Of a stretch of 64,000 nucleotides of DNA, positions 22,283 through 34,789 are shown in pieces. The notes below the pieces were generated by a model, which worked only from the letters and a program-made list of their open reading frames with translations, ran no database searches and had not been told where the DNA came from. The DNA is from a phage. The stretch lies in the sequence record PV357171.2; one strand, given 5' to 3'. Positions within the stretch are counted from its first letter, which is position 1, and each line of letters begins with the position of its first letter. A program made the position numbers and the translations under genes.

Positions 22283-22887
22283 TGACTTTATATGCACAAC
22301 AACCTGTTCAAGTAGTACCAGACCATGAATTAAATACATGGGATTATGATTTTAAAGACTTAACTGCCACTGTACAGTTCAAATCTATGAAATTAACCTT
22401 TGCGCACACTGATATTAAAGCCTGTAAAGATCTTGAGCATAAATTAAAAGAAGCTCGTAAGATCTTTGGCAAGGCTCGGATTCCAGCTGATAACCTTATT
22501 AACGCATTAATAGATGCTGGTTATAAACTCGTAAAGACTGAGGTGAACCGCCCTAGTACTCCTGTGACTGTTGGAGGTTCCTGGACCAAAAGTGGTATCG
22601 CATTTAATCCTAAAATAACGTCGGATTTGCACAATGTTCCATGTGGTGGCGTTATAGAAAATAATTCCTCATATCGAGTTGGTGAAGATTACGGCCCTTC
22701 TGTACAGTTGCAACATACTCAAGAAGCTTTTGAATCTGATATGCGAAGCGTAGCACCTGTGGATACTGAAGGTTTTAGAAGTCCCAGCTATGTTACTCAC
22801 TTTAATAATCTTAGGCCTGGGAGTATAAATGATACTATCCTTGAGGCGTTGGGAGCTGCTCTTAACGAAGATAAGAGAGGTAGTTAA
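22282..22887 (+). CDS. hypothetical protein
   Basis: 201 aa; TAATG overlap. Confidence 0.55.
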   Translation: MTLYAQQPVQVVPDHELNTWDYDFKDLTATVQFKSMKLTFAHTDIKACKDLEHKLKEARKIFGKARIPADNLINALIDAGYKLVKTEVNRPSTPVTVGGSWTKSGIAFNPKITSDLHNVPCGGVIENNSSYRVGEDYGPSVQLQHTQEAFESDMRSVAPVDTEGFRSPSYVTHFNNLRPGSINDTILEALGAALNEDKRGS

Positions 22888-22964: not shown

Positions 22965-23849
22965 ATGTATAACTTTAAAGATAAACTAAGACAAAATGCT
23001 GGTAAAACAAAACCTAAAGAGAACAATAATGTTCCTAATGCCAAAGTATTACCATTTCCAGAACTATCCCAAGAAGAAAAAGATAAGTTAGCATTTATGT
23101 TTGATGCACTTATAGGGCTAAATGGACGTTTATATTCCTCTCTCAATATTAATGAGAAACGTTTAGTAGAGATGTTTTGTAAACGTTACCAAGTTACTTC
23201 AAAGGGCAATTCTTATAAAGAAGGTGAGAAAGCATTTACAGTCTTAAAGATTAGCGCATATGCACATCGTTTCTTAGTTTATGGGTTGCAAATGGAATAC
23301 TTTACTATCCCATCATTTAGCTCTTTCCATATCTTTGAAGATGAACGAATGAATATTGATGATCTCTACGGGGATACATACAAATACTCAGGAAGTCCAT
23401 TCCACGATGCATTAAGGAGTTACCCATCTAACTATTTACCCATTAGAGCATCTCAAGGTAAAGCTAGCATCTTTGCTGTATACTCAGGATCTAAAGCATC
23501 GGATCTAGAAACTTATATATTTAAAGAGCGTAAATCTGTGCTTCCAGATGAAGCATTGTATAACAATCCATTGCTTCCAGAAAAAGAACCAGAAAAAATT
23601 GATGTAACCCCACCAATACCGTCTGACTCTCAGTATTTAATTTATGAGAAACAAGTTAAGTTATCCCTAGAAATTGGATTAGTTACACCGCTTGCTGCAG
23701 CATTCATAAATAGATATCTAGAAATTCCTGATGAGTTCCACACACGTTATAATACGAATATTCAGATAACGGATGAACTAATTGCGTTAGCAAAAGATAC
23801 ACCTACAGATACTGAGGCGTATCAAAAAGCATACCAAGAGTTACTATAA
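22965..23849 (+). CDS. hypothetical protein
   Basis: 294 aa; GGGAGA before ATG; last + strand gene before the repeat-rich block. Confidence 0.55.
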   Translation: MYNFKDKLRQNAGKTKPKENNNVPNAKVLPFPELSQEEKDKLAFMFDALIGLNGRLYSSLNINEKRLVEMFCKRYQVTSKGNSYKEGEKAFTVLKISAYAHRFLVYGLQMEYFTIPSFSSFHIFEDERMNIDDLYGDTYKYSGSPFHDALRSYPSNYLPIRASQGKASIFAVYSGSKASDLETYIFKERKSVLPDEALYNNPLLPEKEPEKIDVTPPIPSDSQYLIYEKQVKLSLEIGLVTPLAAAFINRYLEIPDEFHTRYNTNIQITDELIALAKDTPTDTEAYQKAYQELL

Positions 23850-23905
23850 TACTCTGCATGTCTCGGTGCACAATACCTGTACCGAGACTCAAATACAAAC
23901 TCTCG

Positions 23906-23934
23906 TTGACAGATAGCTAAATGTATGTTATCAT
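23906..23934 (+). promoter_or_regulatory. candidate sigma70 promoter (TTGACA-N17-TATCAT)
   Basis: Consensus -35 with 17-bp spacer; no ORF follows, it reads into the repeat region. Confidence 0.3.
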
Positions 23935-24243
23935 AACTCTATGAGTTAATAGAATTAACCATTTAGAGTTGCCACACAGAAGGTGTGGTGGTTCAGTAAT
24001 TTAAAATTACTAACTTGTAGCGGAGGATACGGAGCGACAGGACAAGTTAATAAGTAATTTAATATAAATTACTAGAAACATCACGAGACCTTCTGGCGGG
24101 GGGCAAAGCTCTATATGAGAACCCTGGGGGATCTTATATTTAAAATAAAAGTAAAACTTTTGACCACATAATTTACATTCAAGATGATACACCTGTTGCC
24201 GCTCATCTGCTAGGATGGCACAACACTTTCTTCTAGACTCCTA

Positions 24244-24572
24244 AGTTTCTAGGAAATTGATAAGCACAAATTCTAGAGATCACACAAAAATATTCATCGG
24301 ATTTGCACATATTCTAGGGCAGTTTTCACTGTTCCTAGAAACTCCAGCAATAGGCGGTTAATACAGGGCGGTTATAGGGAGGGCGGTTATTTCTAGGAGA
24401 CATTTTTTGAAAACACATTTCCAGAAATTACTGTCGGATTTGCACATTGTGTTTCTAGAAATTTATGGTCGGATTTGCACAAACGCCTAAGTTTTTAGGA
24501 ACTCTTACTCTCCTGAAAATAGCAGCATTATTTCGGGCCGAAGGCCCATGATTGCCTGAGTTTTTAGAGCCA
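24244..24572 (+). repeat. about six dispersed copies of GTTT(C/T)TAG(A/G)AA motif
   Basis: Copies read near 24244, 24321, 24380, 24450, 24487 and 24559. Confidence 0.5.
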
Positions 24573-25034
24573 CAAGAATTTTCACTTGTCAAGCTATTTT
24601 GCCCCATTTTGCTAATAAAATTTTACTTTTTCTGCACCTATCTCAAATTTCCCCAAATTATCTCAACTCTTCCCCAAAATCCCCGCAAATCAGGTGCTCC
24701 GCACCAATCCTGCGCCTACTTCCTTCTAGTCCCAAAATTTCTCTCACTCTCTCATCCTCTCCTCAAACCTATACAATCACACACCCTCTCATCGAAGTCA
24801 TAAAAATCTTGTCGGATTCGCACATCTCAACACATGTCGGATTTGCACATACTCTAGCTAATCCCACAGGATTCGAACGCAGTTCGTGATTGCTGGAGTT
24901 TTTGGGAAAATTCATTGTCGGATTTGCACACTATAAAAATTTTTCGGGTCGGATTTGCACACTACCAAAAATTGTCGGATTCGCACATACACGCCCACGC
25001 GTAATCCATGGGGGCAAATGTCGGTTTTGCACAA
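24297..25034 (+). repeat. nine direct copies of 15-bp motif GTCGGAT(T/C)TGCACA (iteron-like array)
   Basis: Copies at about 24297, 24433, 24468, 24811, 24836, 24917, 24948, 24974 and 25020, all same orientation. Confidence 0.7.
24595..24795 (+). repeat. about 200-bp polypyrimidine (C/T-rich, G-poor) tract on the + strand
   Basis: Strong strand asymmetry with repeated CCCCAAA(A)T units. Confidence 0.6.
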
Positions 25035-25059
25035 AAGCGCAGGGCAATTGCCCTGCTCG

Positions 25060-25255
25060 CCTGAATGCGAATAAAAATAAGAATCATTCTCATTTAAAAA
25101 GTGGAATGCGAATGAGAATCATTATCATTTAGAAAACGGAATGAGAACTATTCAAGAAGTGAAATGATTCTCATTTAAAAAGTGGAGTGATTATCGATTA
25201 GCTAGTGAAATGCGAATGATAATGATTCGCATTTAAAAACGGAAGTGAGAAACAC
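25060..25255 (+). repeat. four degenerate tandem units sharing (C/T)CATTTA(A/G)AAA(GT/C)GGA(A/G)TG and GAATGCGAATGA cores
   Basis: Units read at about 25089, 25124, 25168 and 25228. Confidence 0.5.
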
Positions 25256-25266
25256 TGCTATTTAAG

Positions 25267-25275
25267 TTATCCACA
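25267..25275 (+). promoter_or_regulatory. DnaA-box consensus 9-mer TTATCCACA
   Basis: Perfect match to the high-affinity DnaA box consensus. Confidence 0.5.
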
Positions 25276-25327
25276 GACTTATTAACAGCACGATTTGACT
25301 TGACAGAATCCTAGCCATTTTGAGGCG

Positions 25328-25336
25328 TTATCCACA
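25328..25336 (+). promoter_or_regulatory. DnaA-box consensus 9-mer TTATCCACA (inside left inverted repeat)
   Basis: Perfect 9-mer. Confidence 0.5.
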
Positions 25337-25491
25337 GACTTATCCCCAGGTTATTCTACTGTATAAATATACAGTATTCCTATGCAGTGAATAATTCTAA
25401 TATAGGCTTAAAACGTCCTGAGTGGTGGTACTAAAACAAAGGGGTATTTATCTGAAGGACTGAAAAACTGGGATCTGCTCCCCGCTTGTTA

Positions 25492-25686
25492 TCAGTCCGG
25501 TAATTGATGCGTGATCTTCTCCTCCTCCCCGTAGGAATCCACCAAATGCTGATAATACCCATCGTTATCATAAATCACTTTATCATAATCGCCACGCTCG
25601 ACCGCTTGCCGATTTTCCAGCGTATCAGGCACAAAGAAAGTATCAACGGTAACAGTAGTTTTAGTTACAACAATTTTATCACTCAT
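25492..25686 (-). CDS. hypothetical protein
   Basis: 64-aa ORF inside the inverted-repeat cassette. Confidence 0.35.
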   Translation of the reverse strand: MSDKIVVTKTTVTVDTFFVPDTLENRQAVERGDYDKVIYDNDGYYQHLVDSYGEEEKITHQLPD

Positions 25687-33855: not shown

Positions 33856-34017
33856 TAATTAAAGTTGAAATAGTCACGGTGTGTAATGATAACATGCCGT
33901 GACTATTAGCTTGCTAAGTACCGGGCGGTAATGAGACTCATTCTCATCTGGGGGGCCACTGCACCCACCCACGCGTACGTAATCCAAAGAATTTGGCAAA
34001 AGTCATTTTAGTGCTAA

Positions 34018-34557
34018 TTAACTGTTTAATTGGGCAACGTCTGGTATACTTCCTTTGAACATCTCCTGTATTGCAAAGTCACCATGAAATGTCCTTCTTA
34101 GTAAATTTGCATAATTTACGGCATCTTCTAATCCGCTATAGGGAAAGTACTTAGTAGTACCCCTTATCAGCCCCTGTTTATCATGTAATCTTACCATCCA
34201 CTTCTGAAGTTCTTTATGCCATGTAACATTTAGATAGCCTGATGATGCTCTTGAGATTCTGCCATTATGATTATTCTCTGTAATTGAAGCCTCTCTTAAA
34301 TTTGACCATCTATTATTTAGTTTATTCCTATCTATGTGGTCTACACATTCCTCTGGCCATCTATTCTCCATAATAACAAAAGCTACTTGATGTGCATAAG
34401 CTTTAAACCCTCGATACTTAAGCTGCCTATATCCCCTATTTAAAGTACCTGCTTCTTTACCCTTACGATTGCCTCTTTTCCAGGTAAAAACTCCGGTTTC
34501 GGGATCATAAGCAAATACTTCTTGTATTTCCTGTATGTTTAAATTATTCTTCATCAC
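34018..34557 (-). CDS. HNH endonuclease with AP2-like DNA-binding domain
   Basis: 179 aa; CVDHIDRNKLNNRWSNL HNH core; intact paralog of the frameshifted 18437 gene. Confidence 0.7.
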   Translation of the reverse strand: MMKNNLNIQEIQEVFAYDPETGVFTWKRGNRKGKEAGTLNRGYRQLKYRGFKAYAHQVAFVIMENRWPEECVDHIDRNKLNNRWSNLREASITENNHNGRISRASSGYLNVTWHKELQKWMVRLHDKQGLIRGTTKYFPYSGLEDAVNYANLLRRTFHGDFAIQEMFKGSIPDVAQLNS

Positions 34558-34789
34558 TCACCTTTGCCCGAAATCTCTTCCGCGACGCCCGAGATCCATC
34601 CGACCACTCCCGCTCAAACTCCGCACGTTTCTCGTCAAACTTCCGCTCCCTTTCCGCAATCTTCCGCTCCCTTTCCGCAATCTCCCGCGATACTTCCGCA
34701 GTATACTTACGATGCTTGTTAATAGCCGCAGTCATTCCGAAAACTCCCGCAAGTACCCCGATAATAAAAGCAATTATAATACTAAACAT
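34544..34789 (-). CDS. hypothetical membrane protein with charged repeat tail
   Basis: 81 aa; N-terminal transmembrane helix; REIAERERKIAERERK repeat. Confidence 0.45.
   Translation of the reverse strand: MFSIIIAFIIGVLAGVFGMTAAINKHRKYTAEVSREIAERERKIAERERKFDEKRAEFEREWSDGSRASRKRFRAKVSDEE

What the first reader, a model, noticed from the sequence alone, without database searches (positions are those of the whole stretch)
24595..24795. About 200-bp polypyrimidine tract with extreme strand asymmetry
The + strand between the iteron-like copies is almost entirely C/T with repeated CCCCAAA(A)T units. Such tracts can form triplex/H-DNA or act as protein-binding or replication-pausing sites, and this one is embedded in the putative injection-stop/origin-like region.
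Basis: seen in the sequence. Interest (0 to 1): 0.35.

Follow-up and report, generated by a model that had tools for sequence, protein, structure and literature searches.

The report
C-rich tract beside T5 genome end
The tract is a real, strongly one-sided (C-rich, almost G-free) non-coding stretch of a T5-like phage. It begins about 35 bp inside the point where the phage genome's right end is cut, it is conserved across the whole T5 family, and no function has yet been assigned to it.

Summary
The strand asymmetry is real. Window 24602-24793 (C73 T60 A49 G10) is the most C-rich/G-poor segment of the 64 kb. It is not a polypyrimidine tract: it is 69% pyrimidine, its longest pure C/T run is 10 nt, and triplex/H-DNA is not supported.

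The window is a T5-like phage, 95% identical to T5 here. The tract is the inner edge of the long terminal repeat, within T5 "Repeat Region 3" (it includes direct repeat A). The right physical genome end maps to 24566|24567 in T5, Sepoy, phiR2-01 and other records, and within 2 nt in Slocum and My1.

The layout runs: T-run, cut, TTGTCAA box, C-rich/G-poor tract, TGTCGGATTYGCACA array, nick. It recurs in Tequintavirus, Epseptimavirus, Sugarlandvirus, Slocum and My1. Where the tract no longer aligns, its composition and 10-bp phasing persist.

Best reading (0.4): part of a cosB/pac-like end-formation and packaging-start region. Main rival (0.3): a Rho-loading (rut) insulator for early transcripts entering the repeat. 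The two are not exclusive.

The region is already known and no function has been tested. Interest is moderate.

The parts
24602..24793 (+). C-rich/G-poor tract. This is the maximal-scoring segment: C73 T60 A49 G10. The C-rich strand is the window + strand, which is the T5 minus (nicked) strand. It corresponds to about AY587007 9911-10103.
24566..24567 (.). Inner boundary of the long terminal repeat, which is also the right physical end of the mature genome (...GAGTTTTTA|GAGCCACA...).
   Evidence: T5 in two records. Sepoy by PhageTerm. phiR2-01 by doubled read coverage. NBSal005 and NBSal002 records start here. Contig ends L048, L033, L044 and L021 fall here, and L038 within 2 nt. Slocum and My1 agree within 2 nt.
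24520..24640 (.). Most conserved block of the region, straddling the cut. Column identity across the window and 26 unique relatives (27 rows) is 0.88-0.99 in 20-nt bins. Its central part, 24561-24638, is the only stretch still alignable to Sugarlandvirus.
24535..24547 (+). G+C hairpin GGGCC-GAA-GGCCC, 20-32 nt outside the cut, followed by a T-run that ends at the cut. Sugarland and Slocum have a hairpin of different sequence at the same place. My1 has none that is obvious.
24586..24592 (+). TTGTCAA box about 20 nt inside the terminus. It is present in the T5 type, Slocum and My1, and as GTGTCAA in Sugarland and IME260.
24639..24677 (+). Two copies of TATCTCAAnTTCCCCAAA, which are 'direct repeat A' copies 2 and 3 of Wang et al. 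as annotated in AY587007. The CCCCAAAWT units lie at 24651 and 24672, followed by CCCCGCAAAT at 24681.
24567..24700 (.). Helically phased A/T tracts with a 10-bp period. This is the 99.8th percentile of the window, with shuffle p = 0.0005.
24730..24793 (+). 64-nt G-free CT/CA-rich block containing three copies of a TCTCTCAyyCTCTCmTC-like unit. It is the longest G-free run in the window.
24288..24484 (+). Three copies of the TGTCGGATTTGCACA repeat ('direct repeat D'), outside the terminal repeat.
24803..25036 (+). Six copies of the same repeat inside the terminal repeat, all in the same orientation. The T5 7.9% / 99.7% nick position corresponds to 25036|25037 (CACAAAA|GCGCAGGG).
23906..23934 (+). 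Strong sigma-70-like promoter match (TTGACA-17-TATCAT with an upstream TG, 11 of 12) pointing toward the tract. It is conserved only in relatives that carry the T5.018 homologue.

Best explanation
The tract is the inner edge of the roughly 10-kb terminal repeat of a T5-like phage. In replicating concatemers it lies directly beside the site where the right genome end is cut (24566|24567). In the virion it occupies nucleotides 36-227 from the right physical end.

I read it as part of the cis-acting end-formation and packaging-start region, a functional analogue of lambda cosB or of a pac site. It would be a helically phased, probably curved, oriented spacer on the side of the cut that enters the capsid first. 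Its role would be to position terminase, or another end-processing protein bound to the flanking TGTCGGATTYGCACA repeats and the TTGTCAA box, on the conserved cut site.

Shown: the position relative to mapped termini, the family-wide conservation of the layout, the 10-bp phasing, and the conserved strand asymmetry.

Inferred: that terminase makes this cut; that the right end is packaged first (deduced only from the left end being injected first); and that the repeats are protein-binding sites.
For: 1. Independent terminus determinations place the genome end at 24566|24567. These are T5 in two sequencing projects, Sepoy by PhageTerm, phiR2-01 by read coverage, and NBSal005/NBSal002 and other full-length records. 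Slocum (PhageTerm) and My1 agree within 2 nt.

2. The best-conserved 100 bp of the whole non-coding region straddles this point and includes about 45 bp outside the repeat, as expected for a site recognised in the concatemer.

3. The same order of elements recurs in five lineages, including a second subfamily: T-run, cut, TTGTCAA box, C-rich/G-poor tract starting 4-39 nt from the end, D-repeat array, nick.

4. A 10-11 bp periodicity is significant in all 11 sequences tested. It appears in A/T tracts in nine of them and in C-runs in the two Sugarlandvirus sequences. In the window it is at the 99.8th percentile. This is a double-stranded DNA property typical of bent or wrapped DNA.

5. The D repeats occur only around this cut, apart from one further copy at 22621 about 2 kb away. 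All are in one orientation and they lie on both sides of the cut.

6. The left terminus has no comparable tract, which fits a signal used only at one end.

7. No coding, RNA-family or replication-origin signal competes with this reading.
Against: A packaging signal read as duplex DNA does not by itself explain the defining property of the tract, which is G-avoidance on one strand extending through non-repetitive sequence (64 and 50 nt with no G at all).

Outside the first ~70 nt, sequence conservation is lower than in the flanks (58-67% against 71-80% in Epseptimavirus). Only composition survives in Sugarlandvirus, Slocum and My1. That pattern looks more like a compositional (single-strand) constraint than a set of sequence-specific binding sites.

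No IHF consensus is present.

No terminase-binding, packaging-direction or cut-site experiment for T5 turned up in the literature searched.

Three records place the repeat boundary elsewhere. The pork29 and saus132 records put it at about 24774; the paper describing these phages gave no method in the passages retrieved. The Kenya-K20 record puts it at about 24992; its method was not looked up.
Confidence: 0.4

Rival explanations
1. The tract is a Rho-utilisation (rut) site, making a Rho-dependent terminator or insulator. Early transcripts running on the window + strand from the T5.019/T5.018 genes, or from the promoter-like site at 23906, into the terminal repeat would expose about 190 nt of untranslated, unstructured, C-rich/G-poor RNA. 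Rho would load there and terminate within the next few hundred nt. This would keep early transcription out of the pre-early genes. It could coexist with the packaging role.
For: The tract has the strongest C>G bias of either strand in 64 kb. Every 78-nt window with (C+1)/(G+1) of 8 or more lies inside it, and the maximum is 17.

The + strand RNA is among the least structured in the window: -11 kcal/mol per 150 nt against a mean of -31 +/- 6.9.

The composition, but not the sequence, is retained in lineages that no longer align.

In every lineage checked, the flanking early genes point toward the tract, so the C-rich strand is the sense strand. This holds for T5.018/019, for Slocum_028 (whose stop codon abuts the boundary) and for My1_023-025.

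No intrinsic terminator is predicted on the + strand between 23700 and 25600, whereas the - strand has one at 25056-25039.

The 10-nt spacing of C-runs in Sugarlandvirus would also suit six Rho primary sites. That last point rests on my own knowledge of Rho.
Against: It does not explain why the tract begins within 4-39 nt of the genome end in every lineage, although shared ancestry could account for that.

It does not explain the 10-bp phasing of A/T tracts, which is a duplex-DNA feature.

The tract, at 190-270 nt, is longer and more extreme than known rut sites need to be.

About 700 nt of untranslated RNA precede it.

The promoter at 23906 is not conserved across the family.

No transcript data were available here.
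Confidence: 0.3
2. The tract serves DNA entry rather than DNA exit. One version: it is part of the injection-pause or second-step-transfer system, since it would sit inside the tail tube during the pause. Another version: it is the target of the A1/A2 proteins, following Davison's proposed cleavage site 'right of iss'.
For: It belongs to the conserved non-coding 'Repeat Region 3' that carries the injection-stop candidates, and AY543070 draws its iss feature over it.

It lies 300-500 bp beyond the estimated shear point. By my own inference from a roughly 250-nm tail (the 250 nm is given for BF23; about 0.34 nm per bp is my figure), that is within a tail-length of DNA.

Davison's model needs a conserved site to the right of iss that is present in both repeats.
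Against: The published candidates for iss lie on the other side of the shear point: the IRD'-spacer-IRC' DnaA-box region and the DRE repeats.

No experiment links the tract to the pause.

The strand asymmetry is again unexplained.

The close tie to the cut site is not predicted by this reading.
Confidence: 0.1
3. A non-B DNA structure is itself the functional element. The candidates are H-DNA/triplex, or a G-quadruplex on the G-rich 3'-ending strand together with an i-motif on the C-rich strand.
For: There are four C4 runs on one strand (24602, 24651, 24672, 24681), and G4Hunter reaches -1.44 at 24650-24693.

Sugarlandvirus relatives carry a canonical motif: five C4-5 runs with loops of 7 nt or fewer.

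The G-rich strand runs 5'->3' toward the genome end, as in telomeres.
Against: In the window and in all Tequintavirus, Epseptimavirus and Slocum sequences there is no set of four C/G runs with loops of 12 nt or fewer.

A G4Hunter score of -1.44 is matched or exceeded at several other places in the window.

For H-DNA, the longest pyrimidine run is 10 nt and the only mirror repeat has 6-nt arms and is not conserved.
Confidence: 0.05
4. The tract has no specific function. It would be compositional drift or mutational strand bias in a spacer, with only the neighbouring cut site and repeats under selection.
For: Within Tequintavirus and Epseptimavirus, substitutions to G are only mildly under-represented: 11-18% of changes against 20.7% expected, with p = 0.02-0.35.

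The middle of the tract (24717-24740) tolerates indels.
Against: The C/G ratio of 3.3-7.4 is kept in five lineages, including ones in which the tract sequence no longer aligns.

C is enriched about two-fold over the genome, which deamination-type bias would not produce.

Conserved islands exist inside the tract: CCCCAAAAT-CCCCGCAAAT and CTCCTCAAACC...CACACCCTCTCATCGAAGTCA.

The left terminus shows no such bias.
Confidence: 0.07

Closest known systems
Phage T5 'Repeat Region 3' / inner end of the left terminal repeat (AY587007 9194-10409; direct repeat A copies 2-3, direct repeat D copies 1-9; Wang et al. annotation, Davison 2020 bioRxiv 10.1101/866236)
   Same: [quoted passage not shown]
   Different: Nothing structural differs. 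The held T5 text on this region (Davison 2020) does not use the words 'purine' or 'pyrimidine' and does not discuss the tract's position 35 bp from the cut, and the other papers opened said nothing about it. No function was assigned to it in any of them.
Lambda cosB and pac sites of SPP1 / P1 (terminase-loading regions next to the cut; from established knowledge, not tested here)
   Same: A non-coding region on the first-packaged side of a site-specific cut, with repeated short motifs flanking the cut and a bent or phased segment between them.
   Different: No terminase binding has been shown. There is no IHF consensus. The T5 ends carry a 10-kb repeat rather than cohesive or headful ends. The extreme one-strand G-avoidance is not, to my knowledge, a described feature of cosB or pac sites.
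Rho-dependent terminator rut sites (e.g. lambda tR1; C>G 'bubble')
   Same: C-rich, G-poor and unstructured, in the sense orientation for incoming transcription, and downstream of the last gene of an operon.
   Different: It is two to three times longer and more G-depleted than needed. It is tied to a genome terminus. Transcription and Rho dependence are untested.
Phage T7 short-repeat array beside the terminal repeat (CCTAAAG units, nt 161-400)
   Same: An array of short C-rich units with A-runs, directly abutting the inner boundary of the terminal repeat, with strand asymmetry (T7 161-400: C67, G26).
   Different: In T7 the array lies outside the 160-bp repeat and the C-rich strand has the opposite polarity relative to the boundary. 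The units are unrelated in sequence. The function of the T7 array is also not established.
Ciliate-type telomere repeats (C4A4 / G4T4)
   Same: CCCCAAA(A)T-type units occur within about 230 nt of a linear DNA end, with the G-rich strand running 5'->3' toward the end.
   Different: Only two to four degenerate units are present, none at the very end. There is no tandem array and no canonical quadruplex motif in this phage. Phage ends are made by cutting concatemers. I treat this as a resemblance only.

Membership tests
T5-type terminal-repeat inner-edge module (Repeat Region 3) | Sequence homology to the T5 region that contains direct repeat A copies 2-3 | tested here: met
   95.1% identity to AY543070 10785-9385. 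The DRA copies map to about window 24641-24679.
T5-type terminal-repeat inner-edge module (Repeat Region 3) | Lies immediately inside the repeat/unique boundary, which is the right genome terminus | tested here: met
   The boundary is at 24566|24567 and the tract starts 36 nt inside it.
T5-type terminal-repeat inner-edge module (Repeat Region 3) | Flanked by same-orientation TGTCGGATTYGCACA (DRD) copies, with the 7.9% nick site distal | tested here: met
   Three copies on the left and six on the right. The nick motif CACAAAA|GCGCAGGG is at 25036|25037.
H-DNA / intramolecular triplex tract | Uninterrupted homopurine-homopyrimidine run of about 15 bp or more | tested here: not met
   The longest C/T run in 24567-24835 is 10 nt, and the tract is 69% pyrimidine.
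H-DNA / intramolecular triplex tract | Mirror-repeat symmetry of the pyrimidine run | tested here: not met
   Only TCTCTC-A-CTCTCT (6-nt arms) at 24740-24752, and it is not conserved in Epseptimavirus.
H-DNA / intramolecular triplex tract | Single-strand nuclease or chemical reactivity under supercoiling | not testable with these tools
   Needs S1, KMnO4 or DEPC probing.
Rho-dependent terminator (rut site) | At least 60-80 nt of C-rich, G-poor RNA | tested here: met
   192 nt at C 38% and G 5%. It holds the highest C/G ratio in 78-nt windows of either strand.
Rho-dependent terminator (rut site) | Little RNA secondary structure | tested here: met
   MFE of -11 to -12 kcal/mol per 150 nt against a window mean of -31 +/- 6.9.
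Rho-dependent terminator (rut site) | Transcribed in the C-rich sense and untranslated | tested here: inconclusive
   The upstream genes and a promoter-like site point the right way, and frame-breaking indels argue against coding. No transcript data were available.
Rho-dependent terminator (rut site) | Termination depends on Rho | not testable with these tools
   Needs bicyclomycin or rho-mutant Term-seq, or in vitro termination assays.
Terminase recognition region (cosB / pac-like) | Adjacent to the site-specific cut that creates a mature end | tested here: met
   It lies 36-227 nt from the mapped terminus.
Terminase recognition region (cosB / pac-like) | Repeated candidate binding motifs around the cut, with bent or phased DNA between them | tested here: met
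   The DRD arrays lie on both sides. The 10-bp AA/TT periodicity is at the 99.8th percentile and is conserved across lineages. Only the sequence pattern is shown, not binding.
Terminase recognition region (cosB / pac-like) | Bound by the small or large terminase subunit and required for packaging | not testable with these tools
   Needs EMSA or footprinting, plasmid-transduction assays or mutant phage.
G-quadruplex / i-motif element | Four or more runs of at least 3 G (or C) with short loops | tested here: not met
   There are no such motifs with loops of 7 or 12 nt or fewer in the window or in Tequintavirus, Epseptimavirus or Slocum. They are present only in Sugarland and IME260.
Replication origin (iterons plus DNA-unwinding element) | A/T-rich unwinding element next to the iterons | tested here: not met
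   The tract is 43.5% G+C, above the window mean of 38.8%. T5 origins have been mapped near the genome centre according to Davison 2020.

The most novel reading that the evidence does not exclude
The tract and its neighbours would form a family-wide 'end module' that is read as a single strand. Host RNA polymerase transcribing across the concatemer junction would pause at the hairpin and T-run that end exactly at the cut, and would then be removed by Rho loading on the C-rich RNA. This transcription event, or the exposed G-rich 3' strand, would mark the junction for terminase cutting and packaging start. That would be a host-polymerase/Rho counterpart of the T7 concatemer-junction pause site that T7 needs for genome maturation.
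Probability: 0.1. Interest if true: 0.7.

Novelty: already known. Interest (0 to 1): 0.35.

Why it matters
How T5 makes its exact 10-kb terminal repeats, and what its large conserved non-coding region does, have been open questions since the 1980s. Published discussion has centred on injection arrest.

This analysis shows three things. First, the most conserved core of that region straddles the genome-end cut site. Second, an extreme one-strand C-rich/G-poor tract always follows the cut, across two subfamilies, Sugarlandvirus and Slocum. Third, the tract lies on the far side of the first-step shear point.

Together these shift the likely role of this part of the region toward genome-end formation and/or transcriptional insulation. 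They also give concrete and inexpensive tests: tract inversion or replacement in T5, reanalysis of existing strand-specific RNA-seq, and terminase footprinting.

A practical by-product concerns annotation. The PhageTerm 'repeat end' annotated for Sugarland coincides with the T5-type nick site rather than the true terminus. Several other T5-like records place the boundary away from the conserved cut site.

Tried and rejected
- **Triplex/H-DNA.** Rejected on run length and mirror symmetry.
- **Canonical G4/i-motif.** Absent in this phage; present only in Sugarlandvirus.
- **Coding sequence.** ORFs of 83 and 96 aa cross the tract, and some records annotate 'hypothetical proteins' here. However, 1-nt indels occur among close relatives, and there is no Pfam or PHROG match.
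- **Known RNA family.** Nothing credible in Rfam; the only hit is off-target, at E = 0.066 and 16 bits against a gathering threshold of 627.
- **IHF consensus WATCAANNNNTTR.** No site within the tract, and the window total is at chance level.
- **Symmetric 'telomere-like' bias at both ends.** Left termini of T5, My1, Slocum, Sepoy and phiR2-01 show only C15-33 against G16-21 in the first 100 nt.
- **Mutational-bias explanation.** Weakened by the two-fold C enrichment and by retention of the bias in lineages that no longer align.
- **IMG/VR scan with the 14-mer TTTTTAGAGCCACA.** Returned mostly chance hits and only one new relative.
- **Mapping the left terminus of this phage by alignment to T5.** Failed because about 690 bp differ there.
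- **Literature.** Searches for a T5 pac site or terminase site, and for the T7 short-repeat literature, found nothing usable. Davison 2015 is not held.

Full report
**1. The observation**

The sequence at 24595-24795 is A .254, C .363, G .060, T .323, with 12 G in 201 nt. Only the window starting one base earlier has fewer (11), so this stretch holds the lowest G content of any 200-nt window in the 64 kb. The two longest G-free runs of the window lie here: 24730-24793 (64 nt) and 24635-24684 (50 nt). GC skew reaches -0.70.

A maximal-segment scan places the best C-rich/G-poor segment of either strand at 24602-24793 (C73 T60 A49 G10). The binomial probability of so few G at the window's G frequency is about 5e-9. 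So the strand asymmetry is real and is the most extreme in the window.

The tract is not a polypyrimidine tract. Pyrimidines make up 69% and A makes up 25%. The longest pure C/T run is 10 nt, and by a pyrimidine-versus-purine score the top segment of the window lies elsewhere.

The 'CCCCAAA(A)T units' are two exact copies (24651, 24672) and two degenerate ones. The motif is not over-represented in the window as a whole.

The tract does lie in the 318-bp gap between two clusters of the TGTCGGATTYGCACA repeat.

**2. What the locus is**

Window 24000-25400 is 95% identical to phage T5 (AY543070 10785-9385, opposite orientation). It matches 449 T5-like phage records. Further along, the window continues from the A1/dmp end of the repeat into the receptor-binding and terminase genes. 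It therefore comes from an assembly with a single collapsed copy of the terminal repeat.

In both annotated T5 records, the left terminal repeat ends at the position that corresponds to window 24566|24567 (...GAGTTTTTA|GAGCCACA...). The right end of the T5 genome has the same sequence up to that point.

The same boundary is reported independently in several other records:
- Salmonella phage Sepoy, by PhageTerm.
- Yersinia phage phiR2-01, by doubled read coverage.
- Records NBSal005 and NBSal002, which start exactly there.
- Four further full-length contigs that end exactly there, and one within 2 nt.

The tract is therefore nucleotides 36-227 from the right physical end of the virion DNA. It is equally the innermost part of the left repeat.

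It includes 'direct repeat A' copies 2 and 3 of the AY587007 annotation. It belongs to what Davison calls Repeat Region 3 (AY587007 9194-10409). That region is described as highly conserved and of unknown function, and is discussed mainly as the home of the injection stop signal. That paper never uses the words purine or pyrimidine. The 2023-2026 papers I opened still describe the region only as 'rich in repeats and palindromes'.

The estimated first-step shear point (AY587007 9618, about window 25087) lies 300-500 bp from the tract, on the side that enters first. The tract is therefore second-step DNA. The T5 nick at 7.9% / 99.7% corresponds to 25036|25037. The nicked strand is the C-rich strand.

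**3. Conservation**

I aligned the window with 26 unique relatives. The best-conserved block is 24520-24620, with column identity 0.93-0.99. It straddles the cut and includes about 45 bp that lie outside the repeat.

Within the tract, identity to the window falls to 58-67% in Epseptimavirus and phiR2-01, lower than in the left flank (71-80%). Even so, G stays at 9-16 of about 192 nt and GC skew stays at -0.64 to -0.80 in every sequence. One-nucleotide indels among close relatives rule out coding. The crossing ORFs match no Pfam or PHROG family.

More distant relatives are the most informative. In Klebsiella phages Sugarland and IME260 only the core 24561-24638 still aligns. In Serratia phage Slocum (repeat end called by PhageTerm) and in Pectobacterium phage My1 (a different subfamily; the right repeat ends at the end of the record) the terminus falls within 2 nt of the same position.

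In all of these the order of elements is the same:
- a T-run ending at the cut;
- (GA)GCCAC or a C-run;
- a TTGTCAA box about 20 nt inside the end (GTGTCAA in Sugarland and IME260);
- a C-rich/G-poor tract (nt 25-173, 39-151 and 4-272 from the end, with C/G of 3.3-7.4);
- the D-repeat array, followed by the nick.

Within alignable sequences, the bias against substitutions to G is only mild (p = 0.02-0.35). The case for a compositional constraint therefore rests mainly on these deep comparisons.

**4. Anatomy bearing on mechanism**

(a) Duplex-level features. A/T tracts in 24567-24700 are phased at 10 bp. This is at the 99.8th percentile of the window, with shuffle p = 0.0005. A 10-11 bp periodicity is significant in all 11 sequences tested: in A/T tracts for nine of them, and in C-runs for the two Sugarlandvirus sequences, where C4-5 runs recur every 10 nt. 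The D repeats lie on both sides of this cut, all in one orientation. The only copy elsewhere in the window is at 22621. The left terminus has no comparable tract.

(b) Single-strand-level features. G-avoidance extends through non-repetitive sequence. The C-rich RNA would be almost unstructured, at -11 kcal/mol per 150 nt against a mean of -31 +/- 6.9. Every 78-nt window with (C+1)/(G+1) of 8 or more in the 64 kb lies inside the tract. In T5, Slocum and My1 the adjacent early genes are transcribed toward the tract, so the C-rich strand is the sense strand. No + strand intrinsic terminator is predicted in 23700-25600. A strong promoter-like site at 23906-23934 points the same way, although it is conserved only in part of the family.

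**5. Explanations**

I rank first (0.4) a role in genome-end formation and packaging start. In this reading the tract is the phased, oriented spacer on the first-packaged side of the cut, analogous to cosB or a pac region. The flanking D repeats and the TTGTCAA box would be the candidate protein-binding sites. The position, the conservation and the phasing are shown. Three points are inferred: terminase involvement, packaging polarity (deduced from left-end-first injection), and protein binding.

The main weakness of this reading is that it does not explain the one-strand G-avoidance. A Rho-utilisation site (0.3) explains exactly that property, along with the retention of composition without sequence. 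It does not predict the tie to the cut or the A-tract phasing. The two readings are compatible.

A coupled version is the most novel reading not excluded (0.1). In it, transcription pauses at the hairpin and T-run that end at the cut, and Rho then releases the polymerase, marking the junction for cutting, in the manner of the T7 concatemer-junction pause.

The remaining readings are less likely:
- a role in the injection pause or second-step transfer (0.1);
- a non-B DNA structure as the functional element (0.05);
- no function (0.07).

**6. Comparison with known systems**

The element is a direct homologue of the annotated inner edge of the T5 repeat, so it is already known as a sequence. Its function is unassigned.

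- It fails the defining tests for H-DNA (run length, mirror symmetry).
- It fails the test for a canonical G4/i-motif in this phage.
- It fails the test for an origin unwinding element.
- It meets the sequence-level criteria of a rut site, but transcription and Rho dependence are untested.
- It meets the positional and architectural criteria of a terminase-loading region, but binding and requirement are untested.

A partial parallel exists in T7. There, nt 161-400, directly beside the 160-bp terminal repeat, carry CCTAAAG units and are C67/G26. That array lies outside the repeat and has the opposite strand polarity.

**7. Verdict**

The asymmetry is real, but it is not polypyrimidine.

The region is already known, and interest is moderate. 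What is new is descriptive: the position 35 bp from the conserved cut, the family-wide retention of composition and phasing, and the sense orientation for incoming transcription. These observations make the function directly testable.

Noticed in passing
window 23906-23934 (+): A near-consensus sigma-70 promoter match (TTGACA-17-TATCAT with TG, 11 of 12) lies just after the T5.018-homologue stop codon and fires toward the repeat boundary. No ORF of any size follows it. It is conserved only in relatives that keep this gene.
   Followed up: partly
window 24535-24566; L161, L163: A G+C hairpin followed by a T-run that ends exactly at the genome-end cut. Sugarland (CACGGTG-TGT-CACCGTG) and Slocum (CGGC-GGA-GCCG) have a hairpin of different sequence at the same place. 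My1 has none that is obvious. On the + strand it looks like a weak terminator or pause signal.
   Followed up: partly
L161 (Sugarland MG459987.2) locus 900: The 'repeat region predicted by PhageTerm' ends at CACATAA|GCGCAGG. That is the T5-type nick motif, about 350 bp inside the conserved cut site. The annotated repeat end is probably a nick-derived read-start peak and not the terminus.
   Followed up: partly
L006 (pork29) locus 908, L007 (saus132) locus 910; L005 (Kenya-K20) locus 2493: These records place the repeat end at the far edge of the tract (about window 24774-24776) or at about 24992, even though they retain the conserved GTTTTTA|GAGCCACA core. For pork29 and saus132 no method was stated in the passages retrieved from the paper describing these phages. 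For Kenya-K20 the method was not looked up.
   Followed up: partly
L041 / L162 (IME260 KX845404.2): The right end of the record carries 20 nt (GCTTAGAGGGTTGGGGGGTG) that are not present at the left-repeat boundary. Identity between the two repeat copies stops exactly at GAGCCACA, so these 20 nt may be an artefact.
   Followed up: no
window 33875-34568: About 690 bp here replace about 190 bp of T5 around the left terminus. The stretch is pyrimidine-rich on the + strand and includes one of the least-structured RNA windows. A similar position in relatives is annotated as an HNH homing endonuclease. The Sepoy-like left-end motif GAGTCTCATTACCGCCC occurs, reverse-complemented, near 33920-33940.
   Followed up: partly
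L049, L168, L169, L170 (left termini of T5, My1, Slocum, Sepoy): A shared box GTCTnnTnAC(C)GCC(C)CC lies 25-45 nt inside the left terminus in four lineages. It is a candidate signal for the left-end cut.
   Followed up: no
window 22621-22632: A tenth exact TCGGATTTGCAC (D-repeat) copy lies about 1.7 kb outside the main array, within the neighbouring early-gene region. T5 annotates a 'direct repeat D copy 10' in the same relative place.
   Followed up: no
window 25266-25282 and 25327-25343: An exact 17-nt direct repeat GTTATCCACAGACTTAT carrying the DnaA-box consensus TTATCCACA, 61 bp apart. These correspond to the published DnaA-box pairs of the injection-stop candidate region.
   Followed up: no
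window 25039-25056 (-): The only intrinsic-terminator-like site in the region (GCAGGGCAATTGCCCTGC followed by a T-run) is on the - strand and begins 2 nt from the nick position. It equals T5 'palindrome J'.
   Followed up: no
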